Below, piece by piece: positions 240 through 63,400 of a stretch of DNA of 64,000 nt. Each line of letters starts with the position of its first letter. Positions within the stretch are counted from its first letter, which is position 1. The stretch is taken from assembly GCA_905178155.1 (NCBI GenBank), contig CAJINV010000014.1, forward strand, positions 186,001 to 250,000, written 5' to 3'. Both the position numbers and the translations under genes were made by a program. The stretch is from Amoebophrya sp. A120 (lineage: Eukaryota > Protista > Dinoflagellata). The notes under the pieces were generated by a model. The model saw only the letters and a list, made by a program, of their open reading frames with translations. It did no database searches and had not been told where the DNA came from.

Positions 240-3200
240 GCAGGTCACAGGCAATGGCTTTCTCGTCGCCGTTGCCGATAAATTTCCGACAGGGTGCCCC
301 GCCCGCGCCAGTTTCACCGAAGTTCGCGTCCGGTTATGAATTGCAAAAGTATCGTACTCGTATAAATCTAAATGCATGACAAATTCCCTCCGCATGAGAA
401 AAAAAAAATGTCATGCGGATTTACCTTGGGAAGAAAACTTGTAATGCATGATTGCAAATACCACGAGTACGATACTTTTGCACATGATACCGATTTCACG
501 CCGACAACAAGGTAGGCGTCGTCCACATTGTCCTCATAGGTTCCGTTCACTGCGCGGTCTTGCAGAGGATCCGTCACAATGGACAAATCCTGCTCCCCGT
601 CGGGAGCTGTATGGCCTTCTCAACTGTTACATTCTCAACTGTTACATGGATTTGTCATGCAAAAGCACCATTATCATCCTCACGATCAAGCTGCTCCGCA
701 TGACAAATCTGCGGAGGGCTAAATAGCACTATAATCCGTCCCAAATCTGTAATGCAAAAGGCGCAATCTTCCTCCTTTCACTATTGCCCTTCTTGCATTG
801 CAAATTCGTGTAATAGTTGAGAATGTATACATTTGAGAACGCCATAAGCTGCGCGGCAGGCGTTGAGGTCCGTCCAGGTGAACAGGGAGGCGACGCCGCA
901 TTTTTTATTGTGAGGAAAAATCTCCCCTCCCCATATTGAAAGCGCATCCTTCTGAAAATTTGCAATGCAGATTTGTGACCACAAATCCTGTCTGTCTTGC
1001 AAGAAGGCGAATCCTGAGAGTCCGCCGCATTATGCAGGCGGTTTGTGATGCTCTTGGGCTACTTAAAGCCTAGAGATTTGGCATGCTAGGTGCCCACGTC
1101 AAAGCCTCTGGGCAGCTCAGGCTTGGCATATGCCTGCAGTCCTCTACTGCAGCACAAATCTGATTTGTGTACGGAAATCCAGCAGCAGAAATTTCGTTCT
1201 GATATGTTGGGGAGGTGGGACTTTTCCTTTTGATACTTTTTGGGACTCAAGGTGAGGAGCTGCACCTCCACGACCACCATGGGAGAGCCCGTCAGTTCCA
1301 GCTGCCACCAAGCGCGGGGAAAGGCCGCACCAACCGCGGGCGCGCCGGAAAACATATGAGAGTGCACAACTCCACCCCCTCCCCCTCATTTGTCATGTAA
1401 AACCCCAAATCCAAGTGCTTCTCTGTGGCACTGTTTGCATGACAAATTCTGAAAGCCCAACCAGTACGACACTAGGCACATGAATTTGTCATGCACAGGC
1501 TCCACGTGTGGGTGTGCTGGTGTCTGTATTGCTGTTCATGCAATACAAATGAGGGGGAGGGGGGGTTGTGCATTTTCATAAAACAACGCGCCGGCGCTGA
1601 AGGGGTAGTTGGTGGAGAAATATCCCGAATTCACTTCCTCAATAATTTGCAATACCGTATTCCCAATCTTCTGAATGGTCGGCTGCGACTTTTGGTCCAT
1701 GCCCCTGTTTATGCATTGCAAACATGATACGACGTCCTGGGCCTGGAAGTAGAATGCGAGACTTCTTGTCATGCGAGTTGTCTAGCGCGACACTGAGCTC
1801 TGTCTTGCGTGGACAGCAAGAGCTTCTCTTGTCTGTCATGCGAGAACTACGCTGTTTGTCATGCGGAATACGCAACTACACGGAACCTCCACGAAAAAAT
1901 CTGTCATGCTTAGCGGCGCATGAGAGTATGCTTTTCATCACGACTGATATGCATCACAAGTTTCCAGACCCAACACCAGACATAAGTATTTGCAATGGAT
2001 ACTGTCCGCCGAGAAAACTGCGTTCAGACCCATGTCCACGTAAATTTTTTCCCGTACTACAGTTGCAACTGCGGTTTCTGCATCACAAAACTTGTCTCTC
2101 ATCCTAGTCTGCATCACACATAGCGTTTTACGCTTTAACTTTGCAGAATCTATTGTGATGCATTTTGTGCAACATGTTGTACGGGACCACTAAATTTGTC
2201 TTGCATAACCCACGCTCGAGACGTACGTTGACGGCAGATCATTGCTCTGCGTTGCGGTTCCGCTAAGCGGGGATATTGTGAGGAAAAATCCCCCCACCCC
2301 ATATCAAAACGAAGTTTGTAATGCTGGATTTGCGTACACAAATCAGCTTTCTCTTGCAGAAAGTACTTGGCGGCACTTCCTAAGCCTGTTCGGGTATGCA
2401 GAAGGCTAGCAATAACGCATGGAAGACGGGTTTGCAGTAGCCGAAAGCGCATGACAGATTGGCTTTGGAATGCGCCACATGGCTCCTATTGCCCTATAAG
2501 GAAGACAGAGATGATTTGTGACCACAAATCAGCATCACAAATGTTTATATTTGATATGGGGAGGGGGGATTTATTTTCATGTTGATAGGGGACTTCTTCT
2601 TCTTTTTCTTCCGGGACAGCAGGACTTTTTTCCGGAAGGCCGCAATTTCTTTCTCCGTTGCCTTTTTCCTATCGCTTGCCATCAGCTGCACGTGGTCAGA
2701 CCAGGCGGCAATCGCCTTGGCCCTCTTTGTTGATTCGTATCCAGGAAAAATAACACACCCATCCACATCCAATTTTTCATGAAAAACACGTATAATGCCC
2801 TGCGCCTGTCATGCAAAAAATGGATGGGGATGGGTTTTTTTCTCCGGATAATTCGTCCAATTCCGCTATGCGTTCCCGGAGCACATTCTCCGCTTTCTTT
2901 TTCTCTTCCGCCGTCAGGTGCTTCTCATTCTCCAAGGTCAACGCCACACGACCATCTTATCGCAGGAAAAAACTGTTTCACTGTGATGATTTTGCAAGAT
3001 CTGCATCACAAGTTTGTTACACATGGCACAGAAAATTTGTCATGCGCACTTCCCAAGGGAAAACGCCCTTAAAAATCAAATGTCTTGCATGTTTAGCAAG
3101 ACAAATAGTTTTGTGTTCCATTCCATGCATCACAAGTTCACAGTGAAACAGTTTTTTCGTGGGATACATCTTCCTGTGCCTTCATTTTCTTTTTGAGTTC

Positions 3201-6200
3201 CTCCGCTGCTTCTTCTTCTCTATGCCGTGCCTCGTCCTTATGGATTGCAAAAGTGTCTGGGTCTGAAAGATTGCAACTTGTCATGGTAAATCTGAAGCAT
3301 GAAAAAATCTGTGTTGCATGAGTGCCAAAAGCTGTCCACTTTTGACCAAGTTCGAAGGGAGTTTCTCACGCAGGACAGGCATGGCGGAGACCTCGCAGAG
3401 TCTGCCATGCTAAGTCCCGCATTCCAGACCTCATGGGTCATGGAAAATCTGCATCACAAGTCTACACTTTTCCAGACCCAGACACTTTTGCGCTTGATAG
3501 TCCTGCTCCTCGATCTTCTTTACCAGCTCCACGGCGTCCTCTTGCGCTATGGCGCTCTCAACTGTTACAATCTCAACTGTTACATGAATTCGTCATGCAA
3601 AAACAGCAATAGGGAAAGGGGTGAGCTTGCAAGTCTTGCATCACAAATCTGGCACAGATTTAGATGCTATCTAGCCCTTCGATAATTTGTCATGCTGAGC
3701 AGCTTGATTGTCTTGCGGCTTATGGTCATTTTGCATGACAAATCATGCAACAGTTGAGAATGTAACGTTTGAGAACGCCATATGCGCCTGCGCCAGCTCG
3801 GCCGCCTCTTCCCGAGCGTGCTTCGAGAACGTATCAACTGCAAAAGCGTCTGGGCCTGGAAACTTGTAATGCTAAGAATGAATGATAGACGCACTGCAAT
3901 ACGCAGCTAAGCATGACAATTTTTTTGGCTGCCATGTCTTACGTATTCCGCATGACAAACTGCGTTTCTGCATGACAGGTAAGAGGGCGTTTTCGTGCCT
4001 ATACAACACACATTCTCGAGTCATGCCAGACTAGCATGACAAATCTGGCATTCTTCCAGACCCAGACATTTTGGCATTTGATAGAACGACGCTTTTAACC
4101 AGTCCTCCCCCTCGCGCTCGCCACACAAAAAATCCATTTTGCACGCCGTCTCCGCCTCCTGCTTCTTTCGCTCGGGGGTTTTCTCTATCCTGTGCAAAAG
4201 TATCGCACTCGTATAAGTGCAAGTCTTCGTTCGTTGTGGATCGGCTCTGCCGACCGGGTAACCCAACGCCTTGCATATAAATGACCGACTTAGGCGAACC
4301 CCGTTGCGGGCATACAAATTGGCCGTACGGAAGGGCCCTAAGCGCTACATACATAGTTCACCCTAAGCGCCTACCACTTCGGTCTGGGACCTCGTCTACC
4401 TGATCCTGGGGGTCCACAGCGCACTAGCCCTTTGCTAGCATAAACAGACTGGGTTCTAAAAACTGACTTAACTCCCTCCATCCTTTCAACAGTAAGGCCA
4501 TCATAAAGGTGCGCTAAAAAAGGTTCGGGGCGCTCCGTACGGAAGGGAGCCTTTCGACGCGGCGTACACTCTCCTGGAGAGGTTTACGCGGAACACGGAT
4601 GGGCCGCGCACGCAACTCAGTCGAGGAGGACACACGCTATCCTCAATAACAGAGGCGGTAGTCCCTCACGGCGGCTGGCCTGTCTGAAGACTGTAAGCCC
4701 CACCTCCCATCTTCCCGGTTCGTCAATGACTCGGGCGAGCCATGTTACTTAGACTCCCCGCACATGCAAATATGGGACGGCTGGGGGGGTTTAAAAGGTG
4801 CTCGCGCCGTTCATGATCTACTATAAAAGAAGTCTTGCATTACAAATCTTTTTCTTATCGTAAATCCGCATGACAAATTTTATTTCTCATGCTGAGGAAA
4901 TTTGTAATGCATTTATACGAGTGCGATACTTTTGCAATGCATATTCTCGATGTTGAACTGGAGTTCCAGCTTGGAGGAAGCTCCTGCGGCTGAAGCAGAT
5001 GTTGACCTCGTCCCGCTCTGCCGCTTCATGGAGCTCGCAATGGTCGTGCTGTCCACAGCACCTCCAGTCGCATCTTTGCTGGTCCTCTTGGACCGCGACG
5101 TCTTGGTCGACGTCCCTGCCCCCGCACTTTGTTCACTTTCATCCTTCTGCGTAGAAGTTGTAGTGTCTGTTCTTGCACCAGCTGAAAAATTCTCCGAGAA
5201 GATCTTTTCTGCTACGCCCTTGAAAAAGCCGACAAACTCTCCCACTGCCGAATTCGTTTTCGTTTCATGTTGCGCGGAAGAAGAATGCGTGCCAGAAGTA
5301 GTTCCTCCTTCTTCTTGTAGCTCCTCGAGGACCTCCTGGTGCTCGCCCTGTTCTACTGCTTTCGCGGTGGAGATCATATTATCCGCATGATTTCTACTTC
5401 CTGTCGACGTTTCTTGCTGCACCACGTTCAGCTTCGCTGCAGGAAGTGCGACCTCTACCGATGGTCGACTTACTTTCGCTTTCGCAGGCACATCCAGCAC
5501 CCACTGTGAACTCCAACTGGCGGGATGAGCTTGCCCTACCCGTGGCAGTGCCTACAGTCAACATCTTCTCGTCATCTGTTGTTTTCTCATCCTGCTTTCG
5601 CTTCTCGCTTCGACTTGCTGTGGTCGAGCTTTCTTATCCTGCTCGTTGTCGTGCTTCGTATTTTTATCCGTAGATTTTTTACCTTTCCGGAAAGACTCGG
5701 TCAAAGTTGCAGTTGCACTTCTACCAGGAGCTTCATCTCCGGAGGTGGTGGAGGGCATTTTTGTGGCTTCAATTTCATCTGAAGACGCAGCTGCGGCTTT
5801 TTCTACTGAAGCGTCACTTGTCATTTTTGTGGCAGATGTTGAGGACGCCGCTTTTTCTTGGTCTTTATTCCGAGGCCCATCAACATCGAGGAGCTGAAAG
5901 CGCAGTTGCTGATTTGTGCCCGTGGTGGTCTTGATTATTTTCTTCTTTCTTCGCTGTTTCTTTGACCGAGGCAGAGGTCGTTCTTGGTCGTTTTCTGCTC
6001 TTTGCTGCGGTACTAACGGTTGTAGAGGTAATTCTTCTAATTCGCCTCTTGCCAAGTCTTGTTCGCGACGCTGCTGCTCCTCTGGTGCTGGTGCTGTAAG
6101 TCGTTTATCGGTGCTCTTTGACGTTCCTTCTTCAGCTGAGATCGCAACTTCGGATAGTTGTAACCGTGGAGCAGCAGTGTCACCAGTCGTGCCACTTTGT

Positions 6201-9593: not shown

Positions 9594-12500
9594 TTACACA
9601 ATCGCATCGTCCGTGGTTTTTATTTTCATTTCTTGGTGGCCCCCGCTCCTTTCGGCGTTATTGATAGCGTCAAACGCTGCCGCTTCCTCAGCAAATAAAG
9701 AAGTATCGTAAGGAAAAATCCCCCTCCCCATATCGAAAGCGTACCCGTCTGAAAATTTGTGATGCGCATTTGCGACCTCAAATCCTGTCTGTCTTGCAAG
9801 AAGGCAAGTCCAGAAAGCGTTCCGCATTTTGCAGGCGGTTTGTGATGCTGTTTGGCTTAGAGCATACACGTTTGCCATGCTAGGCGCCTACGTCAAAACC
9901 TCTCGACTGAGGCTTGACATATGCCTGCATTCCTCTACTGCAAGACAAATCTGATTTGTGTATGGAAATCCAGCATCAGAAACTTCGTTTCGATATGGGG
10001 AGGGGGGATTTTTCCTCACAATAAGAAGCACTACTTATTCTATCACTGTTGTCGGTCTCCAAGAAAGCCGAAGCGTCCGCGGAATCTAGTACTCCAGCAC
10101 GGCTCCCGTCCTTTGCGGGTCTCGTGATTTTCAGCAGTGCCCGCAGCTCGGCAGGCGTGAGACTGCCGCTGCGCTCGTATCTGTCCTCACCCATGTGCTT
10201 CAGGCAGGTGTTTACCGTCTATGCGAATGCACAACTGCTCGTCCTCGTGCTCCCCCACCTCGTCGTCCCGCTCAACATTTGTATGTTGGCATGAACAGCA
10301 ACAGAAAACCAGCACAGACATATTAGCTTCTGCATGACAATAACTTTAGCGTAGCAGGCGCGGTGGACAACTGTAGTGCTGTCTGCAAGATTATGCATAG
10401 CTTGCCGAAGAACCAAGTTGTCAACGCGGGCAGTATTGCAATTTTGCAATACAAACAACGGCGGGCATCAGGGGCGGGAGTCGACGCGTTGTGGTCCCTC
10501 ATACCGTCGGGTGTTGATCCGACCGGTTTTGTGCGCCGGGGGTATCTATGAACTGCAAAAGTATCGTACTCGTATAAATGCATCACAAACTTCCTCAGCA
10601 TGAGAGATAAAATTTGTAATGCGGATTTACCTTAAAAGACAGATTTGTAATGCAAGACTTGCATTTATACGAATACGATACTTTTGCACAGGATAGTATC
10701 GAAGAGTACGCGATCGTACTGCAGACAGCCCTATCAACTGCAAAAGTGTCTGGGTCTGGAAGATTGCAACTTATCATGCTGTTTTTGGACTCTAAAAAAA
10801 TTTGTATTGCGTGACCAGCAAGAGGAGTACAGTTTGTGCTACACGGACAGGGCATTTCTCATGCGGGAGGTGCATCAGGAAGCCGTTTAAAGGTCTGCAA
10901 TGCTAGGTCATGCATTACAGACACCACGGGTCATGAGAAATATGCATGACAAGTCTTGCATTCTTCCAGACCCAGACATTTTTACATTTGATAAGCCCTC
11001 CTCTGAGAGTTTGGAGCAGCCGTAGTGAAACTCGTAGTACCCGTATCGAAGAAAAAAACGTTGTTAGTGTAACTTTGTGATGCGCCTCCTGCAAAATGAT
11101 TGCGGCTGTCAACATGCTGGGCATGCACTGCAATGTCCACTTCTCAAGCGCGTTTTTGCGTAGTTTACAGTCTGCGCATGACATAAACAGACTGTGCTAC
11201 TGCGGGCGGGACATTGTGTATCAGGTGAATTGATCAACCCGAAGACGCCGCCCCCCCGGGCCCTATGGACCTGGCACTCCCCACTATACTCCTCACACAA
11301 AACGCCACCAATACAACTATAGGACATAGCCAACCACCCCGGAGCACCAGCACCAGCAACGGGGACGGAAACGGCGCAGCCCACTTCCATGACAGGTTTT
11401 CGCTCTGACAGGTTTTCGCTCTCATGCCAGACGTAATGCTGTTCCTCCATCAAAAAAGTTCTTACATACACCTATCAATTTTTTTCCTGGATAACCCGGC
11501 CGCCTGGTGCGTGGGGCAGCAACAGTACTGCACGTAGCTGATGGCTCGGTCGACCGTTTTCCGATCGTCGGGCTCCAGTTGGTCTAGATTATGGGAGTGT
11601 CAGGATTGAAATCGACAAAGTTGAAATAGTTTGTCATGCATGAAACCGATACCAGTTGGAAGCCCAATTTCCAAGCGGCGCATGACAAATTTCGGCACCG
11701 TCTAAATCCAGTTTGTCATGCTGCTTAGGGACAGAGGGCGTCTTTTGTCATGCTACTTTAGCAGCTCAATCGCAGACCCCAAACAGGCTGACAGTCGGCC
11801 TCACTTGCCATTCCTGCAAGACAAGTCACTTCGCGCCTTGCATTTTATGCATGAGAAATCATTTCAACTTTGACGATTTCAATCCTGACACTTCCATATA
11901 GATTCAGTTTCCGGTACACGGTTTTGTAGCTGGGAAACAGATATCAAATGCAAAAGTGTCTGGGTCTGGAAGAATGAAACTTGTCATGCTGATTTTGGAT
12001 TCTAAAAAAATCTGTATTGCATGAGCAGCAAAGAGAGTCCAAATTTTGCAGCACGGGAAGGGCATTTGTCATGCAGAATAGGCATCAGGAAGCCCTCTAA
12101 AAATCTGTGATGCTAGGGCATGCATCACAGACTTGAGGAGTCATGCGAAAAGTGCATGACAAACCCGGAAATCTTCCAGACCCAGACATTTTTACATTTG
12201 ATAACAGAAACAGATTCTTGGCCACGTCGGCGTAAGCGTACCGGTGCATGGGCTCGCAAACCGCGTCCCGCTCAAACGCACCAAGCGAAGAAGGCTCCGT
12301 GAGCCGGCAGAGCTTCACTTGTTGCGCCATGATGTCGTCGCCGTCGTGCTCTTTCTCGGGGTCTATGTCTTTCAGGTGCTTCTGCGCCTGTCGCGACAGG
12401 GTGTCGTTGCCTTTCGGCGCCACGTCGACCAGGGTGATGGGCGTTCGCTTCTTGGTAATTTTCAGAACCTCCACGTCGTCGTAACAGCCGGAACAGGACA

Positions 12501-15500
12501 CCAGGTTCTGCAGGTCCGCGTAGTGTTATCAAGTGTAAAAATGTCTGGGTCTGGAGGATTGCAACTTGTCATGCTAAATCTGCAGCATGCAAAAATCTGT
12601 GCTGCATGATTACCAAAACTCGTCCAGTTTTGACCAAGTCGGGAGGTAGTTTCTCATGCAGGGTAGGCATTAGAAAGGTCTCGCAGAATCTGTCATGCTA
12701 GGTCCTGCATTCCAGACCTCACGGGTCCTGGAAAAGCAGCATGACAAATCGCGCACTCTTCCAGACCCAGACACTTTTACAGTTGATAAGTGTCGGTAGT
12801 GTGCGATTTTTCCTGTGTTCGCACTCTTCCGAGCCATGCAGATGCTGTCTGTCGCGTTTTTCATCGAGGCGCTCGTCGTTGTTTGCCCCGTTTCATTTTT
12901 GTCCTCCTGGTCGTGCACGACACTGCTGTTCATCGTCCTGCTGGCACTACTAGTAGATGAAGTAGCACTTCTACACTTGCCTGGTTTGCAGGGCTCTATC
13001 AGGTCTTCCGCGTCGCAGCAGCAACTCGCGAGTAAGGGGGACGGGACCCGCTGCACCCAGCCCTCGTCCTTATTGTAGAGCGTCTCGGTTAAATCCTTCG
13101 CAAACGCGTCAAACTCTTCTGACCCAACGTTCTGGAACACGTAGGGCGGCAGCGGCTTGTCCTGGTACAGGTCCCCGGCTTTGATCTTGGTCAGGTCGCG
13201 CATGTAGAACAGGGTAAACACCTATCCAGGAAAAAACACCCACCCCCATCCATTTTTTGCATGACAAACAAAGGAATTTATGCATGTTTTGCATGACAAA
13301 TTGGATGGGGACGGGTGTTTTTTCCTGGATAACACCTCGGAGTCCACCCGCAACGCGGTTTCCGTCTTCAGAACGTCATCCGCCGCCGCCCGGTGGGAGA
13401 CCTGCCTCTCCAGTCTCCGCTCGTCCCGTTTCACCTTCTTGAACGCCGCCAGCGTCGCCCGGCTCCACGGGAGGCCGCGGAACTGCAGCACCTTATCAAA
13501 TGCAAAAGTGTCTGGGTCTGGAAGATTCCAGGAGTTTGTCATGCATCTTCTGGATCACGCAACTGGTCTCTAATGCACCGAAAAGCATTACAGGTTTTGC
13601 GCAGGCCTCCTGATGTCTATCCCGCATGAGAAATTCCCTATTTGCGTAGCAAGAAATGGGAAGCTTTTGGTGCTTATGCAATACAAATTTTTGCCTATTC
13701 CAGAAATCGCATGACAAGTTCCAATTCTTCCAGACCCAGACATTTTTGCATTTGATACACCTGGACCGCAAACAACATGCCGAGGGCGATCACCTCGGCC
13801 GGAACTTTGCTCTTCTCTTTACCCGTTTCCGCGTCCGCAAATTCGTGCTGCTGGTTCTCGTCCGGGTTGGAATTGCTGCCCTCCGCTTGTTATGCATTGC
13901 AAATATGTCTGGGTCCTCTGGAGCAAGAATTCACACTTGCGATGCGCATTTTGCAATCCATGAAAATCTCTCATGCACAGGCAGCAAAAGCTGCCCACTT
14001 TCTGTCACCAGAGTGGGGCATTTGTGATGCGGATTCGGCATTGCGGAAGCTTCTCGGAACTTGTGATGCTAGAGCTTCCATGACAGGCCTTCTGTGTCAT
14101 GCAAAAGCAGCATGACTCTTCCAGACCCGCCAGACATATTTGCTGCAATCCATACTTGTTGTTCCGCAACGTCGTCCTTTTTCTCCTCCAAAACTGCGCG
14201 GCCCTTAGCGAGCATCTCCAGTGCCAGGTCCGCGGACTGCCGGTTTCCGATCGGGTGCCTATGGATGTGTCAGAGTTGAAATCGACAAAGTTGAAATGAT
14301 TTGTCATGCTAAACCGACCGAAACCACTACACAACCTGAAATGATTTGTCATGCATAAAATGCGACACAAAGACTGACTCTATTGCTGAAGGCGCAAGGG
14401 AGGCAAATTCTAGTGCTGCTAAGGGTCAAGCTCAAGCATTGGGCTGCTGACTAGCATGACAGGGAGCAGCCATCTTGCCCTGAACAGCATGACAGACTTG
14501 CTTCAGAGGCCAGGAAAATTTGTCATGCGCCGATTGGAAACTGTGGGTCCAACTGCTATAGATTTTATGCATCACAAATTATTTCAACTTTGTTAATTTC
14601 AACCCTGACAGTTCCATAGTGCCGGTGGGAAAAGTACCGCTGCCACGCGTTCTCCCCCACGGGGTCCTGAAAGTGCTTTTTCAGCCGATCGTAAAAAACC
14701 AGCCACGGGTTGCGCGGCTCGAAAATGGTCACATTCTGCTGGATATGCATTGCAAATATGTCTGGGTCTGGAAACATTGAACTTGTAATGCTAGTCCTAC
14801 ATTCCTGTAAAATCTGTATTGCATGACTAACGAAACGACGCCTCCTTTTGTGATATTTCTCATGCGGACTGCGCTTAAGAAAGTGTCCGGAAAACTTGTC
14901 ATGCTTGGCTGCATTGGGAAGTATTTCAGTCATGTACATTTCAGCATCACAAGTTTCCAGACCCAAACATATTTGCAGTTGGTACTGCAGATCGTAGTCC
15001 CATTCCTTCCGGAAAGCCTTGTACAGCATGTCCGTGATGAGTTTCAGCATCGGCGGAAATTTATAAATCGCAAAAGTATCGCACTCGTATAAATGCATTA
15101 CAAATTTCCTCAGCATGAGAAATAAGATTTGTAATGCTAATTTGCCTTAAGGACAGGATTTGTAATGCATGACTATAATACGAGTGCGATACTTCTGCAC
15201 AGGATAAAACTTCACGTCGTCTCGCGCCTCCATGCGGTGTAGATCTGCGCGGACGGCGGTTTGCAACCGCTTCACGTGCTATCCCGGGGAAAAACGTCTC
15301 CACCGACCCATAACCATACGTCAAGTTGGAACTACGTGTGGTGCACCACAAATCCGGAAGTTTTGGGAGCGCCACGCCTGTCAAGTTCTTGCAGTCTGTA
15401 GTGTAGTGCCGGTCGTTAGCAAGGACAGCTGCATTACAAATCCATTCGTCTATGCTGGTGTTTCCAGCGTCACAAATTCCAAATTGAAAATGCCTATCAT

Positions 15501-37427: not shown

Positions 37428-37468
37428 ATAAGAAATTCTCCTGCAGTGGAAGTTTTCGTTTTTGATGC

Positions 37469-50403: not shown

Positions 50404-52047
50404 CTAGTTGCTATCCCCGGCCGCGGACGAAACCGCCACGGATCCCGGCCAGCTTCGCGGCTCAGGCTCGCACGACGGCGCGCCGCTGCTCGTGTCGCCC
50501 GGTGCAAGCGCGAGAGGTGCCGCATGCTGGTCCTCGTGGGCTGCAAGCAACATGCTTCCTGCCTCATGTTCTACCGGTCCTCCAGGCCCTCGTGTGCTGG
50601 GGGGCTGGTGCGCGGCATCGACTTCGGCCTGTCGTGCCACCGGCTTGTGCGGCGGAAGATCTTCAAACGGGGGTCTCGAGCAAGATGAATTTCTCCTCCG
50701 ATTAATTCGACTCGCGGGGGCTTCTTGCTGACCGCCGCTTGGAACAAAACCGCGGGCTCCTGCCGGCGAAGTAGCAGATAAACCCAAGCCCCAGGGGTTC
50801 ACGTGCAGCGGCAGCATTCCAGCGCCAGCAGGAACAAGTTCGTGGTACGAGGAAGATGCAGGCTGGTGGCCCCGGTGCTGCTGCGGCCCGGAAGATGTTG
50901 ATGATGGGACATTTTGCTCTGCTGGACCGGCGACGCTGAGGGCTGCGAGACTCGCGAGCGTGCTGTTCCAATTGGGTCCGGGCGTGGGCCGGCTGTCCTC
51001 GTGCGGGTAGTTCAGATCTACCTCGTGGCAACTGTAGTACTGCTGGGGCGAAAGTAGATGCACTTGGCCTCCAGCGCCTCCTGAGACACCATCACCTACA
51101 ACACCTCCCGGCGCACTTAATATAGAAGCACCTCCGGCGCCGACGAGGTGGTCTGGAGTCACAGCCCCCTGGTTTGCCGCGAGAAACTGGTCTACGGGGG
51201 CGGTGTAGGAGCCCTCGACGTGGTCGTCCGGCGAACTGCCGAACCCGTAGAGGTAGTTTGTGCCCGCAGACAGGCTTCTCAGCTCCCCCAGGTGAACGAT
51301 ACCGGGCCGGGGAACGGGCGCGATCAGGGGAAGGGCGCTTTCTTGCGGTTGCTGCAGGACTGAGTGGCTGCTCTCTGTCTCTTCTCGTTCCGGCGTCTCC
51401 TCCGGAGGACACGAAATTGCTTGTGTTTGTTGACGTGGTCGTCGTCCCATGCTGGGATCCCTAATCTGCAGCTCTGGAAGATAATGTTGCGCACGGTCAG
51501 TGCGGTCATCTCTGCGGAGCTTTCTTCGGCTGTCGAAGGTTAAAGACCGCTGTGGCGACGTGGTCCTTCTTCCTGTTCTTGCGAGAACATGATCATGATC
51601 TGTCGGCTCTGGTTCCCCACCATGGCCATGGGGGTGCGACGTCGCCCGCGGCGCGTTGTAACTGTTGTGGTCCTCCGCTTCTGCTCGAATTAATTCCAGT
51701 ATTCCTTGTTCCCACGACGCAGCTTGTTCCGCAGGCCCCGCAGTCGACGACGTACTGTGATCCTGATTTCCCGCGGCATCCAGGGGACTTGTGTTGCTGC
51801 GTCGCAACAGCCGGGTGCTGCCGCGCCGGTGGTCGGACGTAGTCCTCGTGGTTCCCCCACATGAAGATGAAGAACTGGCTGCCCCTATCAAAATGAAAAG
51901 TGCCCATATTACTCTTCCAGAGATGATTTTTGGCGTGTTTGATGTATGTGAAAAACTTTCATGATGAATGAGAATGTCCAAGAAATCCAAAAATTGCACT
52001 CCTATAAAAACCCTGGCTGCGGCGTTCTGAGAGTGGCGGGACGACAC
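50404..52047 (-). CDS. Hypothetical low-complexity protein or exon
   Basis: 547-aa ORF on the coding strand; no domain recognised. Confidence 0.5.
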   Translation of the reverse strand: MSSRHSQNAAARVFIGVQFLDFLDILIHHESFSHTSNTPKIISGRVIWALFILIGAASSSSSCGGTTRTTSDHRRGSTRLLRRSNTSPLDAAGNQDHSTSSTAGPAEQAASWEQGILELIRAEAEDHNSYNAPRATSHPHGHGGEPEPTDHDHVLARTGRRTTSPQRSLTFDSRRKLRRDDRTDRAQHYLPELQIRDPSMGRRPRQQTQAISCPPEETPEREETESSHSVLQQPQESALPLIAPVPRPGIVHLGELRSLSAGTNYLYGFGSSPDDHVEGSYTAPVDQFLAANQGAVTPDHLVGAGGASILSAPGGVVGDGVSGGAGGQVHLLSPQQYYSCHEVDLNYPHEDSRPTPGPNWNSTLASLAALSVAGPAEQNVPSSTSSGPQQHRGHQPASSSYHELVPAGAGMLPLHVNPWGLGLSATSPAGARGFVPSGGQQEAPASRINRRRNSSCSRPPFEDLPPHKPVARQAEVDAAHQPPSTRGPGGPVEHEAGSMLLAAHEDQHAAPLALAPGDTSSGAPSCEPEPRSWPGSVAVSSAAGDSN

Positions 52048-52618
52048 TTTTCATTTTGATAGCCCCAACCGCGCGGGGCGGGGTGGTGCTGCGGAACTTC
52101 TGGTAGGCCGCGCCAAGCTGATGCACGAGCGGGTGCGGTGCAGGTGGGGAACGTTGCAAGTGCTCCTCTACTTCTTGAGATCGCCGCCCACAGCGGTTCT
52201 TGCAATAAGACCTCCCTGTGGTCCCTGCTGGGGCGGGAGACTCTACTGTAGCGCCCGCCGCTCCTGGTCCTCGCCGGTCGAAATGATGATGCTCCGGGTT
52301 CTGGTCGTGGTCCAGGTGTTGAGCGAAATGGTGGTCTTTCGAGGCGGGAAGAACTCCTTCTGTGGCAAGATGGTCTACTCTCCTTGGACTGCCGCTCGCG
52401 CAGCTGCTCCCTTGCTTTTCGTCTTCACTAGCGACGTGTCGGCCGCGTGCGCCCGGGCTACTGCGCCGCCGGCTCTGCCGATGCTGTCTCGCGAAGGAGG
52501 AGCTCACGCCTATCGGCGTCGGCTGGAATCTATGCACCATTGCAAAAGTATTCATTGCGATACGTAGAAATTGGATGACAAAATCTTGCAAAATGAAGAG
52601 CGGAGCTTGCCATTCAGC

Positions 52619-54319
52619 TTAAGAAGGCTGATCCGCATATGCCGTAGAAGTGCGAGAATTACTACAAGTAGTACGAGACTTTTGATGCAGTGGATACACA
52701 CTGTTGCTCGCCCGGCTGGTCCCCATCCCCAGTATGGGAATGTCGCCCAGCGGGATGCCCAGGGTCGTATTGATGCACAGGGGAGGGAAGGATTGCCGCA
52801 GCGGTCCGTCGCGAGCGTAATTTTCATCCGGGAGTCGAGATGCATGATCGCTATGCTGCTCGTCTTCCCGCGTATGCTCGTCCTCGTCGTTCGAGTCGTT
52901 ACACGCCGGCTGCCGGGGAAAGTGGTCTATTAATTCTTCTCCTGATTCTCTATAAGCCGCTCCGAAAGTAGCAGCTGCGCCTCCACCTCCTCCGGCGGGC
53001 GCGGGGCTGATGCTGATTGCACAGCCACGGTCCATTTCGTCGTGGTCGTCCTGTTCTTGCGATTGCAACAGGTCTACCGGCTGCTCCAGCACTTCCAGCG
53101 TATGCGACCGAGAAAACTCCGAGGCAGGCGACTCCGCGCGTGTTCTTCGCGCAGAGATAATAATACGTTGCTTGTTTCCGTACTGTGAATGTGGTTGTGA
53201 TTCCAGTTGTGCTTGCGGCTCGTGAGAAGATAGTCGTCCACCTCGAGGTGCAGCAGGTAAAGCCCCGGCACCAGAATGTACCGTCGCACCCGCTGCGCCT
53301 TGCCTGGTCCCGCCCCCACGCTCACTACGTTGATTAAGACTGCTGAAGCTCGGTCTAGAACTGCTACTCGCACTACCTGCCTGTTGCTGACCTCCCGTAG
53401 TACTGCTGGCACTGTGTGCGCCGGCCGCACTGGCGCCGCCGGGCCTGCCATGCGGCCGCGACGTCGAAAAGGAGGGTCTATCGAGTACGACCCTACTAGA
53501 AGTACAACTACTTGCGTCACCTCCACCAGCTGCAGCACCGCCGCCGTCTAGAGTGGAAGATGAAGACGGAGGTGCGCCAAAGGAAGGAAAGTAGCCGCAG
53601 GGCTCCTTGGTTTTTATTTCTCTAGTACTGTTGAGGTCGTGAAGATTATGCTGTGCAGCAGGTCCAGCTCCCCGGGTAGTTCCAGGTCCACCACCACCGC
53701 CGCCGGCTTGCAACGCTACCGTGTGTCTGCTACCGGTCGTTGCCCCGCCGCCGGCGAAGTAGGTTCCCCGATGCGCCGGAAGACCTGCGGAAGCAGCAGC
53801 CTCACTACCTTCCCCCTCCGGGGCGGGAATGTGGTCGACGGGGTGTGGCGTCTGGCTGAGGTCTTCATACGGTGACGGCACCACCGGTGACTGTAACGCT
53901 GCCAGCCCGGCGGCGCCACGGCGGCCTGCAGTAGCCCCAGGAATCAAGTCTTCCGGCTGTATGCTGGCGTTGAGTCCCGGCACGGGCGTCAGTCGACAGG
54001 TCGTCGGCACGGAGGAGCTGTCCTCGGATGAAAGATGAGTTTGGTCTGTCGTGGTGGAAATCGGTATGGGCGGCACACAGACGAGATCCTGCCTGCCACC
54101 AGCAGCAGGAGGAGCAGCAGCACTTCGGTACTGCTGTGCTCCTACTGAAGATGTTGAAACATGAAACATGCTGTCGGCCGAGCTGCCGACCACCGCCTGC
54201 GAGCCTGCAGCCCCAACTGCTGTGCCCGGAACAAGGAGTTCCTGGTCCGGGTCCCGCAGCCGATCCAAAATCTCCGACCAAGCGTGGGCTTGCTGACTTA
54301 TGGAAGTTGTGGTGCACAA
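52619..54319 (-). CDS. Hypothetical Ser/Gly/Ala-rich protein or exon
   Basis: 566-aa ORF; no domain recognised. Confidence 0.5.
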   Translation of the reverse strand: MCTTTSISQQAHAWSEILDRLRDPDQELLVPGTAVGAAGSQAVVGSSADSMFHVSTSSVGAQQYRSAAAPPAAGGRQDLVCVPPIPISTTTDQTHLSSEDSSSVPTTCRLTPVPGLNASIQPEDLIPGATAGRRGAAGLAALQSPVVPSPYEDLSQTPHPVDHIPAPEGEGSEAAASAGLPAHRGTYFAGGGATTGSRHTVALQAGGGGGGPGTTRGAGPAAQHNLHDLNSTREIKTKEPCGYFPSFGAPPSSSSTLDGGGAAAGGGDASSCTSSRVVLDRPSFSTSRPHGRPGGASAAGAHSASSTTGGQQQAGSASSSSRPSFSSLNQRSERGGGTRQGAAGATVHSGAGALPAAPRGGRLSSHEPQAQLESQPHSQYGNKQRIIISARRTRAESPASEFSRSHTLEVLEQPVDLLQSQEQDDHDEMDRGCAISISPAPAGGGGGAAATFGAAYRESGEELIDHFPRQPACNDSNDEDEHTREDEQHSDHASRLPDENYARDGPLRQSFPPLCINTTLGIPLGDIPILGMGTSRASNSVYPLHQKSRTTCSNSRTSTAYADQPS

Positions 54320-54501
54320 CTACTACTAGTACCTACTACCCCTTGGATGTAGTTCTAGTTCCCTGAACATCTACATCTTGCCGACATCTTCTATAAGATG
54401 AACAGAAACACTAATACTGCACCTGCCACGTGCCAAATTTATTTTCCGCAGAGAGTGAGTACTTCTAGCACTGTAGTTTGGAGCAGTCGTCCCGGAACTT
54501 G

Positions 54502-55170
54502 TCATGCGAGCGGCGCTAAAGGAAAAGCATCCAGTAGCGAGTTTGGATTTGGTACTTTGCATGACGTGACCAGAATAGAGGGGCGGGAGGACGAGGAGTT
54601 GTGTACTCTCAACATCATATGACTGTGCGACGAGTCCCGCCCGCCGGGTCGCGAACAATGCTGCTCCTGCTCATGGTGGTGTTGTTGAGCGGCCGAATTG
54701 GCGGCCCCAGCCCCTCCGGCAACCACCCGGACTGAAGAGCCTCCGCCGCTGCCGCACGGTCCACCCACCCCCGGAGGCCCGCTACTTCCACCCACTGGGA
54801 TCATCATCCCAAATTCGCCCGACGTGACCGACCCCGGTGTGCTCCGCGCTGGGTTGCTCGCACTTACCTGTCGGGAGATGTGGTCCTGCAAAGTTGTAGA
54901 ACTGGGCTGCATGGCAGGCAGCGATTGCCCGGTGCTGGAACTAGTTCCGGCTGAAACTAGTACAGCAGCAGTGGCGCAGCTGCCCCCTCCGACCAGTACG
55001 GAGTTATTCACGACAAACAGCGCCGGTGGCGGGGTCGCCGTGCTAGACCGGGCGAGCTGCGTGGGCGTGTCCGGCGTCATGGTGCCGGAGGGCGGTGACC
55101 CGGTGGCACTCGTCGTCCCAAGGGTGAGGCTCCGACCTGGAACAAGCATGTTATTTCGGTTTACTTTCAT
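54502..55170 (-). CDS. Hypothetical low-complexity protein or exon
   Basis: 222-aa ORF. Confidence 0.4.
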   Translation of the reverse strand: MKVNRNNMLVPGRSLTLGTTSATGSPPSGTMTPDTPTQLARSSTATPPPALFVVNNSVLVGGGSCATAAVLVSAGTSSSTGQSLPAMQPSSTTLQDHISRQVSASNPARSTPGSVTSGEFGMMIPVGGSSGPPGVGGPCGSGGGSSVRVVAGGAGAANSAAQQHHHEQEQHCSRPGGRDSSHSHMMLRVHNSSSSRPSILVTSCKVPNPNSLLDAFPLAPLA

Positions 55171-55209
55171 TCTTGTCCGTCGATGAACATGAAAGCTACA
55201 AATCTACAT

Positions 55210-56348
55210 TCAAAAACAACAACACAGAAAATAAATGCTGCCTCGCTGGAAAAGTGGTAGAAATGGCTCAAGGTAGTACAAAGATGATGAAATAACTGCT
55301 ATACCAGCTGCGCTCAAGGTGGAGGAGATCATTCCGCGCTCCGCCAGAATACTAAGCCCCCGACTCCCTTGTCGCGCTTTCGGCCGGGTCTGCTGTGTTG
55401 TGCCTACAGTACTACCCGGCGGTGGAGGTGGTGGACCGCTCGCGCTCGCCGTGCTCGGCGGCGGCGCGTTCGTTTCAGCTGGTGCTCCCGGCAACATTGG
55501 TGGAGCAGGATTGTCGATGTTACTACCACTTCCACATCCACCGCCGGGATTGGAAGAGGCAGCGCCGGAAGCCGAACTGCTTGTGGTCGTTGGGGGCGGG
55601 CCACCATGATTACCACCTGCGGCCCGGTGCAGCTGTAAACTGATGCCATTTGTCGTGGTAGCGAGTTGTACTAGAAGCAGCAGTATCGAATGTAAAAGTG
55701 TCTGGGTCTGGAAGGTTGGAACTTGTGATGCTGTCTCTGGATTCTAAAAAAAATTTGCATTGCATGACCAGCAACAGAACTCCAGTTTGTGCTACCCGGA
55801 GAGGGCATTTCTCATCCATGCGGTAGAGGCATCACACAGGCCTCTAAAAATCTGTCATGCTAGAGCATGCATCACAGACATCATGAGTCTTTCAAAATAT
55901 GCATGACGAACCTTGCAAGCTTCCAGGCCCAGAAATTTTTACATTTGATAAGCAGCTGCACGAGAACAACCCCGGCAGAGGTCGTGGTGGTACAACACAG
56001 GGTGGATAGAAGGCAGCGTATGGATGTGTCAGAGTTGAAATCGACAAAGTTGAAATAGTAATTTGTCATGCATAAAATGCGACACAAAGACTGACTCTAT
56101 TGCTGAAGGCGCAAGGGAGGCAGATTCTAGTGCTGGTAAGGGTCAAGAATTGGGCTGCTGACTAGCATGACAGGGAGCAGCCATCTTGCCCTAAACAGCA
56201 TAACAGACTTGCTTCAGACGAGGCCAGGAAAATTTGTCATGCGCCACTTGGGAACTGGGTTCCAACTGGCATCCATTTTATGCGTGACAAATTATTTCAA
56301 CTTTGTCGATTTCAACTCTGACACATCCATACAGCGCATGCAGGCCAT
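55210..56348 (-). CDS. Hypothetical protein with signal-peptide-like N-terminus
   Basis: Removing introners 56019-56331 and 55684-55950 gives MACMRCLLSTLCCTTTTSAGVVLVQLLLVQLATT..., in frame with ORF 55210-55497. It may continue into downstream ORFs. Confidence 0.6.
55684..55950. mobile_element. Introner family A
   Basis: A-type TIR; TSD AGCAG. Confidence 0.92.
56019..56331. mobile_element. Introner family F
   Basis: Perfect TIR of about 39 bp; TSD CAGCG. Confidence 0.95.
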
Positions 56349-58960: not shown

Positions 58961-59109
58961 CCGAAAGAGGCCAAGAGCCCGAAAGAAGCTGCGAAGCTGG
59001 ACGCCTGCAATCTCAATGTCAAACCCGACTGAAAAAGATCTGAGACATGAAGGGGCGTCAGATCTGACGGCTCAGATCTGGCTTCTCATATTTGAAACGA
59101 ATTCGAGTC

Positions 59110-59290
59110 CCCAAATCTGAATCTCTCGAATCTGAATGCCCCGAGTCTGAATATTTCAAATCTGAATGTCTCGAGTCTGAATATCTCAAATCTGAATGTC
59201 TCGAGTCTGAAAATGATCTCAAATCTGAATATCTCAAATCTGAATATCTCAAATCTGAATGTCTCAAATCTGAGACCTCAAATCTGAAAT
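59110..59290 (+). repeat. 15-bp tandem repeat TCTCAAATCTGAAT[AG]
   Basis: About 11 imperfect copies. Confidence 0.92.
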
Positions 59291-59309
59291 ATCGCGAGAA
59301 TCGAGACTC

Positions 59310-59472
59310 GAGATTCCAGATTTGAGATTCCAGATCTGAGATTCCAGATCTGAGATTCCAGATTTGAGATTCCAGATTTGAGATTCCAGATTTGAGATTC
59401 CAGATTTGAGATTCCAGATTTGAGATTTGAGATTCCAGATCTGAGATTCCAGATTTGAGATTCCAGGTCTGA
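59310..59472 (+). repeat. 14-bp tandem repeat GAGATTCCAGAT[TC]T
   Basis: About 11 near-perfect copies; its core is the reverse complement of the preceding array's core. Confidence 0.95.
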
Positions 59473-60415: not shown

Positions 60416-63400
60416 TCACACCTCCTCAATCTGTAAATCGTGACTTTCCCTTTCATACTCCGGTGCAGGTCGTTTGGATTTGGAGCTGCTTGGCGTGAGC
60501 TGAAACGCCTGGTCTGCTTGCAGATCCGTTGTTCCCCCGGCCCCGCTTTTCGAATTGGATGGACTCGAGCTGTGCAATTGCTTTGTCAGCACACCGTAGT
60601 GGGCTTGCAGTGCATCAGAAACGTCGCCGAAGTGGTTCGGGTTCTCGAGGTACCTGGAGATGCGGTTGTTTCAGGTTTATTTCTGTCCTGCTCGGGTAGT
60701 TGTTCTCGCTCTAGGTGACCAGGGGACTCATCTCATTCTGTTACTCATGTCGAAAAAGATCATCAAGTCTGTATGTTTTATATGCATGCCCCCAGCGACG
60801 TTGTTGCGTGCAAAGAAAAGAACGCCGCAGCTACAGTGCTACGAGTGATGAAGTTCTGTGCGATTGAAGAAATTACAACTCGTCCATACATCCTCTTTAA
60901 TCAGTATCAGCCCTAGAAGTTGCTGTCGCTGAGCTGTGCATGTGCTACTTCTACAACAACAGCCTAATCCTAAAAATCTACAAATCGTACCAGTCCACCG
61001 TTCTTTGCAGCCCCTCTTCCCACGTGGTGTTTACTTTCCAGCCCAGCGCTTCCAGCTTCACACTGGTGGTGAGGTAGCTCTTGTCGTTATCCTGAGTAAA
61101 AACGTCCCCACACCAGAGTCAGGATGGAGATTTTGCAACACGAGCCGAGGAGTTTTGTGAGTCACGCATGACAAGCTGCACTCCGCAGTGTAGTGCAGGT
61201 TAGCAAGTGCAGCCGCATCAAAGATTCATCTGCTCATCCTGTTCACAGCATCACAAATTCCAAAAGACAATTGGAAATGGCTCTCATGGGGCTGCGCATT
61301 ACAAGTCTTGCTGTCTTTGCAAATCTGCATTACAACTCTGGTGTGGGGACGGTTTTTACTCAGGATAGTCGTTGAAAGCCCGGTCTTTGACGTACTGAAA
61401 GTACCGCTTGTCTTATGACAGTGCACAACTCCACTCCCCCTCGTTTGTCATGCAAAATACCAAATCCAGTTCCAGGCTGTGCCTCTTGGCACTGCTTGCA
61501 TGACAAACTCCGGAAGGAGCCCAAACAGTACTACACTCCTGCGCAAAGTTCTCATGCAAAACCAGCATTCTTTCTGACGCTTGTACTGCCGTCCATGCTA
61601 TACAAATGAGGGGGGGAAGGAGTTGTGCACCGTCATATGTCTTGACTGTCAACGTTCGCGATGTCGCCCTGCTCCTTTCCGAGAGCGACCAGGACGCTTT
61701 TCAGCACTTCCAGGTTGCTATCAAGTCGAAAAATGTCTGGGTTTGGAAGACTCGTGCTGTTTTTGCATGACACAGAAGGTCTGGCATGGAAGCTCTAGCG
61801 TCACAGGTCTTGAGAAGCTTCTGCAATGCCGAATCCGCATGACAAATCCCCCACTTTGGTGAGAAATAGTGGGTAGCTTGAGCTTTTGCTACCTATGCAT
61901 GACAGATTTATCTGTGTTCTGAAATGCGCATCACAAGTGGTTCTTCTTCCGGACCCAGACATATTTGCAATCCATAGTTGCTTCGTTCCTGCGGTTGCGA
62001 GATGTTGTAGGTCTCGAACGTTGTGCCCTTGCGCATGATCACATCAAAAGCGGAGACAACGTCGTCGATGAACAGGAAGCTCCGCGTGTTCGTCCCATCC
62101 CCGTGGACTATGCACCGCAAAAGCAATTATCGGATTATATCCCACCAGAGCACAAAGTTTTTTTTTTTTAATGCCGTCCTTTTCCTCACTTTATCCCCCA
62201 GCTTGATGCTGACATATCTTATAAGCATAACCGCAATTATTTCTTCCATGGGCTACCACTAAGCATAAGCAACTTGCGGCAAATTTCATTTCTGTTGTGT
62301 ACAGAATTAGAATGCAAATGCAACGAACAGCAACGTTGGCGTTGCTATGATTCACACGATGTGGATAATCGCGATTTAGACTTTTGTATTGCATATGCAC
62401 CGGGAAAGGCATATTTCGGTTAAACAGCGCGATGGATTTTGGGATCAACTTTTCGGGCCACTGCCGAGGACCGAAAACATTGTTAGGCCTGATTCGGTTT
62501 GTTCCTTTTCAAATTTCAAGCATCGCCCTGCTCCATTCACGGTAAGAATGGGGCGGAAAAAACTCATCAGCGCCACAACATGATTGGAGCGACCTTCTGC
62601 CATTATATGCATTACTCATAATTGTGTCACCCCATAGTGGTTTATCAATTTGATAAAGAACAGTCATAAATTTCTAGTAGAGCCCCCGCAGGCAAATAAA
62701 ACTCAGTATACCTGACGACGATGCTGGGGAGGCGAAAGCTGAAACTGAACCCGCGCACCAGGCACTCTGCGGCGGCTTTGCTCGCCGAGTAGGGGTTGGT
62801 TGGGAGCATCTGGTCGTTCTCGCTCACCCGTCGGTTTTCCTCGAAGCTGAGGTCGCCATAGACCTCGTCAGTCGACACGTGAATGAACCTTTCCAGCGTC
62901 GGGCAGCGAATCGCGGCTTCCAGCAAGATATGCATTGCAAAAGTATCGTACTCGTAGTAATTGCTGTCGTGCATGACAAATCTCGCTTTTTAGGAAAAAT
63001 AGCATTACAAATTGCATTTTTCTTCTTGAAAAAATGCGTGATGCAATTTATACTAGTACGATACTTTTGCAATGCATACAAGACGTGGGTCCCATTCACG
63101 TTGGTCCGCACAAACTCGTCGGACGCCGTGAAAGATCGATCCACGTGGGACAGCGCGGCGAAGTGGAACACGCAGTCGAACCGGTGCTGCTCGAACAAGG
63201 AGCGGACCAGATTTCGGTCGCAAATGTCCCCGCGAACGAACCAGTAGTTCGCGCACTCGTCTGCTAGGTCCTTTATATTTTTCGGGTTTCCACAGTAGTC
63301 CAGCTTGTCCAGGTTGACAAATTTCGTGCGGGGGTACGTAGTCACGAGCCATCGCAGGACATTCGACCCGATGAACCCGCAGCCGCCCGTGAAAAGCACA

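What the first reader, a model, noticed from the sequence alone, without database searches (positions are those of the whole stretch)
335..63078. Shared internal motif TGT[CAG]ATGC / GCAT[GTC]ACA across families with unrelated TIRs
Seen: families with different TIRs and bodies all carry several copies of (T/C)TGT[C/A/G]ATGC in both orientations, every few tens of bp (e.g. 652-660, 11631-11639, 11981-11989, 12066-12074, 13536-13544, 56064-56071, 61445-61453). The motif is rare in exons and intergenic DNA and fades in degenerate copies. Inference: it is a common recognition code for one trans-acting factor (transposase, splicing/RNA-binding protein or chromatin protein), or a set of interchangeable RNA pairing modules that fold the intron.
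Basis: partly seen in the sequence, partly recalled or inferred. Interest (0 to 1): 0.8.

Follow-up and report, generated by a model that had tools for sequence, protein, structure and literature searches.

The report
Spaced DNA code in Amoebophrya introners
In the marine parasite Amoebophrya, a dozen otherwise dissimilar families of intron-forming transposons all carry the same 8-base motif, typically repeated 31-33 bases apart; this is likely a binding code read on double-stranded DNA by one still-unidentified protein, probably the enzyme that moves these elements.

Summary
The window is Amoebophrya sp. A120. TGT[CAG]ATGC occurs 156 times (7-10 expected); 147 sites lie in 60 TAT...ATA elements with 5-bp target duplications, the published A120 introners (Farhat 2021).

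New here:
- The motif is as conserved as the TIRs within families (0.83 vs 0.85; spacers 0.61), while masked bodies do not align across families.
- Same-orientation sites sit 31-33 bp apart (33 of 114 pairs, 3.3 expected, 9 of 12 families).
- This repeats in 133 elements of a second Amoebophrya lineage (97 of 284 pairs, 10.8 expected).
- Sites keep at least 36 bp from the ends.

RNA-pairing and RNA-binding readings are disfavoured: no strand bias, 22 of 60 elements carry one orientation only, and folding and covariation show no excess. Best reading (0.55): subterminal-type DNA sites for one cross-mobilising transposase. No transposase was found. The motif stays constrained even between close sister copies, so a host DNA-binding factor remains possible (0.27). 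I found no description of the motif in the papers searched.

The parts
335..63078 (.). Array of 147 strict TGT[CAG]ATGC sites (74 +, 73 -) inside 60 introners; tandem sites 31-33 bp apart; nearest site usually 36-38 or 44-48 bp from an end
335..489 (.). Introner, family B (3 strict sites)
610..846 (.). Introner, family C (3)
906..1235 (.). Introner, family D (1)
1355..1580 (.). Introner, family E (2)
1710..2001 (.). Introner, A-like (5)
2033..2207 (.). Introner, group K (3)
2274..2587 (.). Introner, family D (3)
2738..2850 (.). Introner, family F (1)
2958..3166 (.). Introner, family G (3)
3239..3499 (.). Introner, family A (1 strict, 8 profile sites)
3548..3782 (.). Introner, family C (3)
3832..4083 (.). 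Introner, family A (5)
4186..4943 (.). Introner, family B (3), with a nested motif-free ~600 bp insert
9704..10023 (.). Introner, family D (2)
10220..10503 (.). Introner, family E, diverged (1)
10547..10695 (.). Introner, family B (3)
10732..10993 (.). Introner, family A (2)
11044..11493 (.). Introner, family G, enlarged (2)
11590..11898 (.). Introner, family H (4)
11942..12203 (.). Introner, family A (5)
12527..12788 (.). Introner, family A (3)
13223..13331 (.). Introner, family F: two - strand sites 32 bp apart
13494..13757 (.). Introner, family A (3)
13891..14154 (.). Introner, family A (3)
14260..14618 (.). Introner, family H (6)
14744..14984 (.). Introner, family A (3)
15062..15206 (.). 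Introner, family B (3)
15280..15583 (.). Introner, family I (3)
16476..16646 (.). Introner, family J (2)
16682..16836 (.). Degenerate introner, B-like (0 strict)
16916..17024 (.). Introner, family F (1)
17228..17515 (.). Degenerate introner, C-like (0 strict)
17639..17878 (.). Introner, family G (2)
18063..18418 (.). Introner, family D (0 strict, 4 profile sites)
18695..18927 (.). Degenerate introner, group K (1)
21175..21324 (.). Introner, family B (3), in the DHODH gene
21469..21764 (.). Introner, family H (4)
21783..22071 (.). Degenerate introner, group L (0 strict)
22387..22496 (.). Introner, family F: two + strand sites 32 bp apart; skipped in a transcript contig
22619..22800 (.). Degenerate introner, group K (1 site); skipped in a transcript contig
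22849..23095 (.). Introner, family C, diverged (0 strict); skipped in a transcript contig
23138..23391 (.). Introner, family A (4); skipped in a transcript contig
23472..23756 (.). Degenerate introner, family G (1); skipped in a transcript contig
27605..27866 (.). Introner, family A (3)
28331..29053 (.). Introner, family H (3), with a nested motif-free TIR element at 28583-29015
29278..29529 (.). Introner, family A (6)
32995..33236 (.). Introner, family C (4)
33279..33429 (.). Introner, family B (2)
33934..34175 (.). Introner, family C (3)
40767..41043 (.). Introner, family I (3), in the TMEM43-like gene
41164..41308 (.). Introner, family B (1)
51886..52061 (.). Motif-free TAT...ATA element with an exact target duplication; its removal joins a 677-aa frame (splicing predicted, not shown)
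54299..54619 (.). Degenerate introner, family E (1)
55684..55950 (.). Introner, family A (4)
56019..56331 (.). Introner, family H (3)
61088..61367 (.). Introner, family I (4)
61414..61637 (.). Introner, family E (2)
61719..61976 (.). Introner, family A (4)
62109..62395 (.). Degenerate introner, group L (0 strict)
62929..63078 (.). Introner, family B (2, 31 bp apart), in an NAD-dependent sugar dehydratase-like gene

Best explanation
The motif is a conserved, regularly spaced element shared by about twelve Amoebophrya A120 introner families, and it is likely a set of binding sites on double-stranded DNA for one transposase (or its end-assembly partner) that would cross-mobilise them all. Shown: the elements have TAT...ATA ends, TIRs and 5-bp target duplications; they are removed from transcripts together with one duplication copy; the motif is constrained; tandem sites lie 31-33 bp apart; and sites avoid the terminal 36 bp. 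Inferred: 31-33 bp is three helical turns, which puts neighbouring sites on one face of the helix for cooperative loading. Inferred: the shared TAT[C/G]-N6-AAA tip would be the cleavage-proximal site, while the family-specific TIR middle and the spacers are free to drift. Inferred: splicing would rely on the TIR hairpin rather than on the motif.
For: Motif identity within families is 0.83 against 0.61 for spacers and 0.85 for TIRs. After masking motifs in the targets, no cross-family profile hit remains at E<=1e-3, while 52 of 53 within-family members still hit. Same-orientation pairs at 31-33 bp: 33 of 114 against a null of 3.3+-1.8, and 97 of 284 against 10.8+-3.4 in 133 non-seed elements of a second lineage. 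With profile sites the peak appears in 11 of 12 groups. Tandem partners are not duplicates of each other: flank identity is 0.30 against a control of 0.28. 215 of 430 nearest-site distances fall at 36.5-38.5 or 44.5-47.5 bp from an end. Inward-facing sites are phased at about 10.4 bp from the ends (p=0.011-0.019, uncorrected). The TIR tip is the best profile match of 160 end positions and orientations. Constraint relaxes on terminal branches (0.37 vs 0.22 of the spacer rate). Decayed elements with 0-1 strict site are still skipped in a transcript contig. Other repeats in the window have 0 sites. Precedents: Ac/Ds1 subterminal hexamers bound cooperatively by transposase (PMC3260210) and arrays of subterminal sites in piggyBat (PMC11707139).
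Against: No transposase was found: 0 of 130 and 0 of 37 ORFs matched a transposase or integrase Pfam family, and Farhat 2021 found none in A120 (PMC7789003). Between the closest sister copies (>=90% identity, 23 pairs) the motif still changes at only 0.46 of the spacer rate (TIR 0.69). Selection acting only at transposition would predict a ratio nearer 1, unless sisters are separated by unsampled jumps. Helical periodicity beyond the 31-33 peak is not significant (p=0.17-0.39), nor is it for outward-facing sites. The tip resemblance is partial, positive in 1 of 11 families. The sites fill the whole element rather than only its ends.
Confidence: 0.55

Rival explanations
1. The motif is bound on DNA by a host protein (a chromatin, transcription or domesticated-transposase factor). 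The protein would mark the inserted element so that it is tolerated and co-transcriptionally excised as a non-canonical intron, so selection continues after insertion.
For: It explains the same DNA-level features. The motif remains constrained on terminal branches (0.37 of spacer) and between close sisters (0.46), more than the TIR does. Sharing across dissimilar TIR families is natural for a host factor. No transposase is known in A120, and U1 is reported missing (PMC7789003).
Against: Degenerate elements with 0-1 strict site are skipped precisely in a transcript contig. A motif-free element at 51886-52061 joins a 677-aa frame when removed (predicted only). Site density falls as elements decay. 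The fixed distances to the element ends fit end-processing better.
Confidence: 0.27
2. The motif is read on the pre-mRNA by an RNA-binding splicing factor that defines non-canonical introns.
For: The motif sits almost only in these introns, and it contains GCAUG-like words of the kind some RNA-binding proteins read (recalled, not tested).
Against: There is no strand bias (74 vs 73). Family F has only same-direction sites yet occurs in both orientations in genes on the - strand. One orientation is skipped in a transcript contig and the other lies in restored frames. A 31-33 nt spacing has no reason on single-stranded RNA.
Confidence: 0.06
3. The + and - copies are interchangeable pairing modules that fold the intron RNA.
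For: 54 of 126 sites with a possible partner pair in predicted folds. Elements fold about 11 kcal/mol more stably than their spacer-shuffled versions (mononucleotide shuffle).
Against: Pairing is no higher than control (50 of 118 vs 190 of 370), and 22 of 60 elements cannot form such pairs. Opposite-orientation sites carry the identical variant in 0.37 of 121 pairs (null 0.29+-0.04), no more than same-orientation pairs do (0.35). The dominant rule concerns same-orientation pairs.
Confidence: 0.04
4. The motif is a remnant of one ancestral element or of tandem duplication, without a present function.
For: Families share the TAT[C/G]...AAA tips. Unmasked profiles cross-hit between families (C vs E, E=6e-12), so a deep common origin is not excluded.
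Against: The motif is far more conserved than its flanks at every divergence level (0.33-0.46 of the spacer rate). The cross-hits vanish on masking. Tandem units share no flank similarity.
Confidence: 0.08

Closest known systems
Amoebophrya A120 introner elements (Farhat et al. 2021, PMC7789003; Gozashti et al. 2025, PMC12130899)
   Same: These are those elements: same strain, TAT...AAA TIR signature, short direct repeats, non-canonical introns, MITE-like with no transposase inside.
   Different: In the text and supplement parts I saw, only TIRs and direct repeats are described. No shared internal motif, spacing rule or end-distance rule is mentioned.
Maize Ac/Ds1 subterminal AAACGG repeats (PMC3260210)
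   Same: Short non-autonomous elements share little with each other beyond the ends and a short repeated word that the transposase binds cooperatively. Ds1 can also be spliced (seen as reference titles only).
   Different: Ac/Ds is hAT, with 8-bp duplications and one 11-bp TIR sequence. Here the duplication is 5 bp, the TIRs diverge beyond the tip, and the spacing is fixed at 31-33 bp.
IS3EU/GingerRoot DNA transposons (PMC10045372, PMC6839031)
   Same: TA...TA termini and TIRs. Gozashti 2025 Dataset row fam38 labels one A120 family 'Ginger, 5-bp TSD, TA/TA termini', with integrase-like homology.
   Different: These usually make 6-bp duplications, and GingerRoot TIRs are 100-150 bp. No internal motif array appeared in the passages read. 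No transposase was available here to test.
piggyBat subterminal transposase-site arrays (PMC11707139)
   Same: Several repeated transposase sites lie inward of the tip.
   Different: A different superfamily, and its sites are specific to one element family.

Membership tests
Amoebophrya A120 introner elements | Host is Amoebophrya A120 | tested here: met
   DHODH exon is 100% identical to an A120 protein
Amoebophrya A120 introner elements | TIR starting TAT, about 7 variable bases, then an A run | tested here: met
   family-balanced end profile
Amoebophrya A120 introner elements | 3-5 nt direct repeat at the boundaries | tested here: met
   47 of 60 exact 5-bp duplications
Amoebophrya A120 introner elements | Spliced out as non-canonical introns | tested here: met
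   The 272-nt gap in transcript contig X4 record 16 equals the four exons predicted by removing five elements plus 5 nt. Removal restores frames across 15, 13, 7 and 5 junctions. Not shown by reads for the other elements.
MITE / non-autonomous TIR DNA transposon | Short, TIR, fixed-length target duplication, multicopy, no transposase | tested here: met
Subterminal transposase-binding repeats (Ac/Ds-like) | Short repeated word, both orientations, conserved, positioned relative to the ends | tested here: met
Subterminal transposase-binding repeats (Ac/Ds-like) | Bound by the cognate transposase and needed for excision | not testable with these tools
   no transposase identified; needs a binding or excision assay
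IS3EU/GingerRoot | TA...TA termini | tested here: met
IS3EU/GingerRoot | 6-bp target duplication (usual) | tested here: not met
   5 bp here
IS3EU/GingerRoot | Integrase-related DDE transposase in an autonomous partner | tested here: inconclusive
   none in 167 ORFs from the window and related loci; whole genome not available
Ginger1/Ginger2 | TGTNR termini | tested here: not met
   termini are TAT[C/G]; definition from PMC2836005
hAT (Ac/Ds) | 8-bp target duplication | tested here: not met
   5 bp
Structured RNA family | Rfam match, or motif-motif covariation | tested here: not met
   0 Rfam hits

The most novel reading that the evidence does not exclude
A DNA-bound factor reads a helically phased TGTVWTGC code on every introner and serves both to mobilise the element and to license its precise, U1-independent removal from the transcript. 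That would be a DNA-encoded intron-definition system that let non-canonical introns take over a genome.
Probability: 0.15. Interest if true: 0.9.

Novelty: new variant of a known kind. Interest (0 to 1): 0.62.

Why it matters
How Amoebophrya's tens of thousands of introners move and are spliced is an open question: Farhat 2021 found no A120 transposase and no family-specific logic, and most A120 families are still classed 'TIR DNA, unknown' in the 40 of 58 rows I read in Gozashti 2025. A single conserved motif with fixed geometry recasts the many families as clients of one system. It gives a concrete bait for identifying the missing protein and a sequence signature for finding autonomous partners and old, decayed introns.

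Tried and rejected
RNA pairing modules and covariation: no excess. Strand-specific G-U preference in TIRs: 34 vs 31, none. Tandem-duplication origin of the 31-33 unit: rejected. A 16-bp lattice over all sites: not significant (p=0.09). General 10.4-bp periodicity outside the main peak and for outward sites: not significant. Specific inverted spacings (15-17, 33-35, 44-51 bp): counts exceed the null but occur in only 3-4 families, p=0.13-0.28. Autonomous partner: the TSD-bounded elements over 500 bp proved to be nested insertions without a recognisable transposase; Pfam found none. Viral contigs: 18 pattern matches, none similar to the elements. Non-JACKZZ metagenome matches: none similar to the elements; several are tandem repeats. 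Rfam: no hit. A PDB search with a frame of the DHODH exon found nothing. The 2026 raw-read run X12 did not cover this strain. Earlier-findings look-ups gave nothing relevant. Strain A25 introners could not be examined for the motif. Read-level splice evidence for 51-64 kb remains open.
Full report
IDENTITY. A dihydroorotate dehydrogenase exon of the window is 100% identical to an Amoebophrya sp. A120 protein. A search for TAT...ATA ends with complementary arms and flanking 5-mers, plus manual curation, gave 60 elements of 109-758 bp; 47 of 60 have an exact 5-bp target duplication. I sorted them by TIR into nine families (A-I) and three small groups (J, K, L). They match the introners of Farhat et al. 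2021 (PMC7789003; I read the abstract, passages of the intron sections, section 34 whole, supplement part 2 of 5 and a term search of the supplement; figures are not visible). Deleting each element plus 5 nt in a script restores - strand frames across 15, 13, 7 and 5 junctions (713, 569, 498 and 585 aa). Deleting 0, 3, 4, 6 or 7 extra bases gives at most 8 junctions; this test fixes the length only modulo 3. In run X4, contig 16 joins 23757 to 22381 across 272 nt, exactly the four exons predicted by removing five elements plus 5 nt. The run is only guessed to be RNA, but it skips introns.

OBSERVATION. All seven quoted sites are present. There are 156 strict sites (77 +, 79 -) against 7-10 from Markov models of order 1-3. 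147 of 156 lie in the 60 elements, 9.5 vs 0.19 per kb. Four control repeats in the window (two nested inserts, 19.0-19.9 kb and 57.3-59.5 kb) have none. A profile refined on 215 elements gives R-Y-Y-T-G-T-V-W-T-G-C-D, with the final G and C at 99% and 98% and T almost never at the variable base.

CONSERVATION AND ANCESTRY. With the motif defined in one copy and scored in the others, identity is 0.83 at motif positions, 0.61 in spacers and 0.85 in TIRs, and the motif exceeds the spacer in 9 of 9 families. Masked bodies gave 3 short cross-family BLAST hits against 113 within-family hits. Unmasked profiles cross-hit, best C vs E at 6e-12, but none remained at E<=1e-3 after masking, while 52 of 53 own members still hit. 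The TIRs share TAT[C/G] and an A-run at 11-15, so they are not wholly unrelated.

GEOMETRY (the main new result). Of 114 same-orientation pairs within 130 bp, 33 are 31-33 bp apart, in 9 of 12 families; random placement gives 3.3+-1.8, maximum 11 in 2000. Of the 124 loci held, 58 come from assembly JACKZZ01, 55 of them similar to window elements; none of the other loci or the 18 viral loci was. One JACKZZ01 protein is 78% identical to its best A120 match, and another gave no A120 hit at 1e-100 in the length range searched, so this is likely a distinct but related lineage. In 39 of the 58 loci (the longer ones, 249 kb, some overlapping) I found 158 distinct elements of largely the same families (0 found in 12 shuffled loci). 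Leaving out the 25 elements that hold a seed-like pair, 97 of 284 same-orientation pairs are 31-33 bp apart against 10.8+-3.4. This replicates across copies and lineages, but the families are the same, so the independent units number about 11. With profile sites the peak appears in 11 of 12 groups, family C with one pair only. The partners are not duplicates of each other (flank identity 0.30 vs 0.28). Apart from 3 sites in the TIR tip, no site lies within 36 bp of an end, and 215 of 430 nearest-site distances fall at 36.5-38.5 or 44.5-47.5 bp (families A and B dominate the count). With one representative per family the best period was 10.25 bp for same-orientation pairs (p=0.002). Under a stricter null, phasing at 10.4 bp held for same-orientation pairs (p<=0.018) and inward-facing end distances (p=0.011-0.019). 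It did not hold once the 29-35 bp peak was removed (p=0.17-0.39), for outward sites, or in the window-only set (p about 0.055). The three-turn spacing is robust; wider phasing is only suggestive.

RNA OR DNA. Inside elements the strands are balanced (74 vs 73), and 22 of 60 elements have only one orientation. Family F carries two same-direction sites and sits both ways round in - strand genes. Predicted motif-motif pairing is 50 of 118 against 190 of 370 with shuffled spacers. Variant matching between opposite sites (0.37 of 121 pairs; null 0.29+-0.04) equals that between same-direction sites (43 of 124). TIR mismatches show no preference for G-U on the transcribed strand (31 vs 34). Against this, elements fold about 11 kcal/mol better than their shuffles, and TIRs pair in 48 of 57, so an RNA hairpin exists but is not built on the motif.

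WHICH PROTEIN. For the transposase reading: the fixed end distances; a partial motif likeness of the TIR tip (best of 160 position and orientation scores, -13.3 vs background -25.7, positive in only 1 of 11 families); relaxation on terminal branches (0.37 vs 0.22 of the spacer rate, Fisher p=1e-4; columns were classed from the same rows); lower density in elements with decayed duplications (p=0.039); and precise skipping of elements with 0-1 strict site. Against: the closest sister pairs still show 0.46 of the spacer rate with motif columns defined from other copies. This may reflect unsampled transposition rounds, since families have hundreds to thousands of copies (PMC12130899 dataset rows), or continuing host selection. 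No transposase was seen in 130 + 37 ORFs, and no whole genome was available. I put transposase or its partner at 0.55 and a host DNA-binding factor at 0.27.

COMPARISON. It works like the Ac/Ds1 subterminal repeats (PMC3260210, passages) and piggyBat site arrays (PMC11707139, passages), but is not hAT (5-bp duplication). TA...TA ends resemble IS3EU/GingerRoot (PMC10045372, PMC6839031, passages), which usually make 6-bp duplications; Ginger1/2 ends (TGTNR; PMC2836005, passages) are not met. Gozashti 2025 (PMC12130899; passages, and rows 1-40 of 58 A120 rows of supplement file 8; files 13-14 not searched) lists most families as unknown TIR DNA and one as Ginger-like with 5-bp duplication and TA/TA ends. 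Passages of PMC9860276, the Roy preprint 10.1101/2020.10.14.339549, PMC12005148 and PMC12768974 showed no such motif.

NOVELTY. The elements are known. The shared internal motif and its spacing were not found in searches for Amoebophrya with introner, transposase or splicing terms, for the word TGTCATGC (2 unrelated papers), or for introner with nucleosome or internal motif. 'Subterminal' and 'conserved motif' occur 0 times in the Farhat main text. The library lacks most subscription papers, including the journal version of Roy 2023, and supplementary figures were not visible, so prior mention cannot be excluded. Verdict: real feature, new variant of a known kind, interest 0.62.

Noticed in passing
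window 26441-26659 and 27277-27467: Canonical GT-AG introns (from transcript contig ends). The first keeps 2 strict motif sites; the second has TAT...ATA-like remnants at 27284-27447. They may be old introners converted to canonical introns.
   Followed up: partly
window 4228-4830; L035:632-1465; L058:6184-6998; L026:505-1608: Unrelated ~580-800 bp motif-free sequences are nested inside introners. Those in L035 and L058 border a (CAT)n run, which suggests another mobile class.
   Followed up: partly
window 28583-29015: A nested second TIR element of a different family, with telomere-like CCCTAA repeats inside and no motif.
   Followed up: no
window 19000-19920: High-copy GC-rich repeat (deep in DNA run X1), motif-free; 19700-19744 was also hit by reads of run X12.
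   Followed up: no
window 57250-59500: GC-rich stretch followed by degenerate GCTTTCGG-type and 14-bp TTTGAGATTCCAGA-type tandem arrays; no motif.
   Followed up: no
window 15640-16140, 22080-22250, 33500-33850, 52531-52700: Motif-bearing intron-like stretches whose ends are too decayed to define; they hold several of the sites counted as outside elements.
   Followed up: no
window 1-64000: All recognisable genes lie on the - strand (DHODH, TMEM43-like, SpoU methylase, NAD-dependent sugar dehydratase). Introners cluster in some genes, while long low-complexity exons have few.
   Followed up: partly
JACKZZ01 loci, e.g. L023-L098: A related Amoebophrya-like lineage (78% identity to an A120 protein) carries the same introner families; 5 of the 23 closest copy pairs are cross-lineage.
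   Followed up: partly
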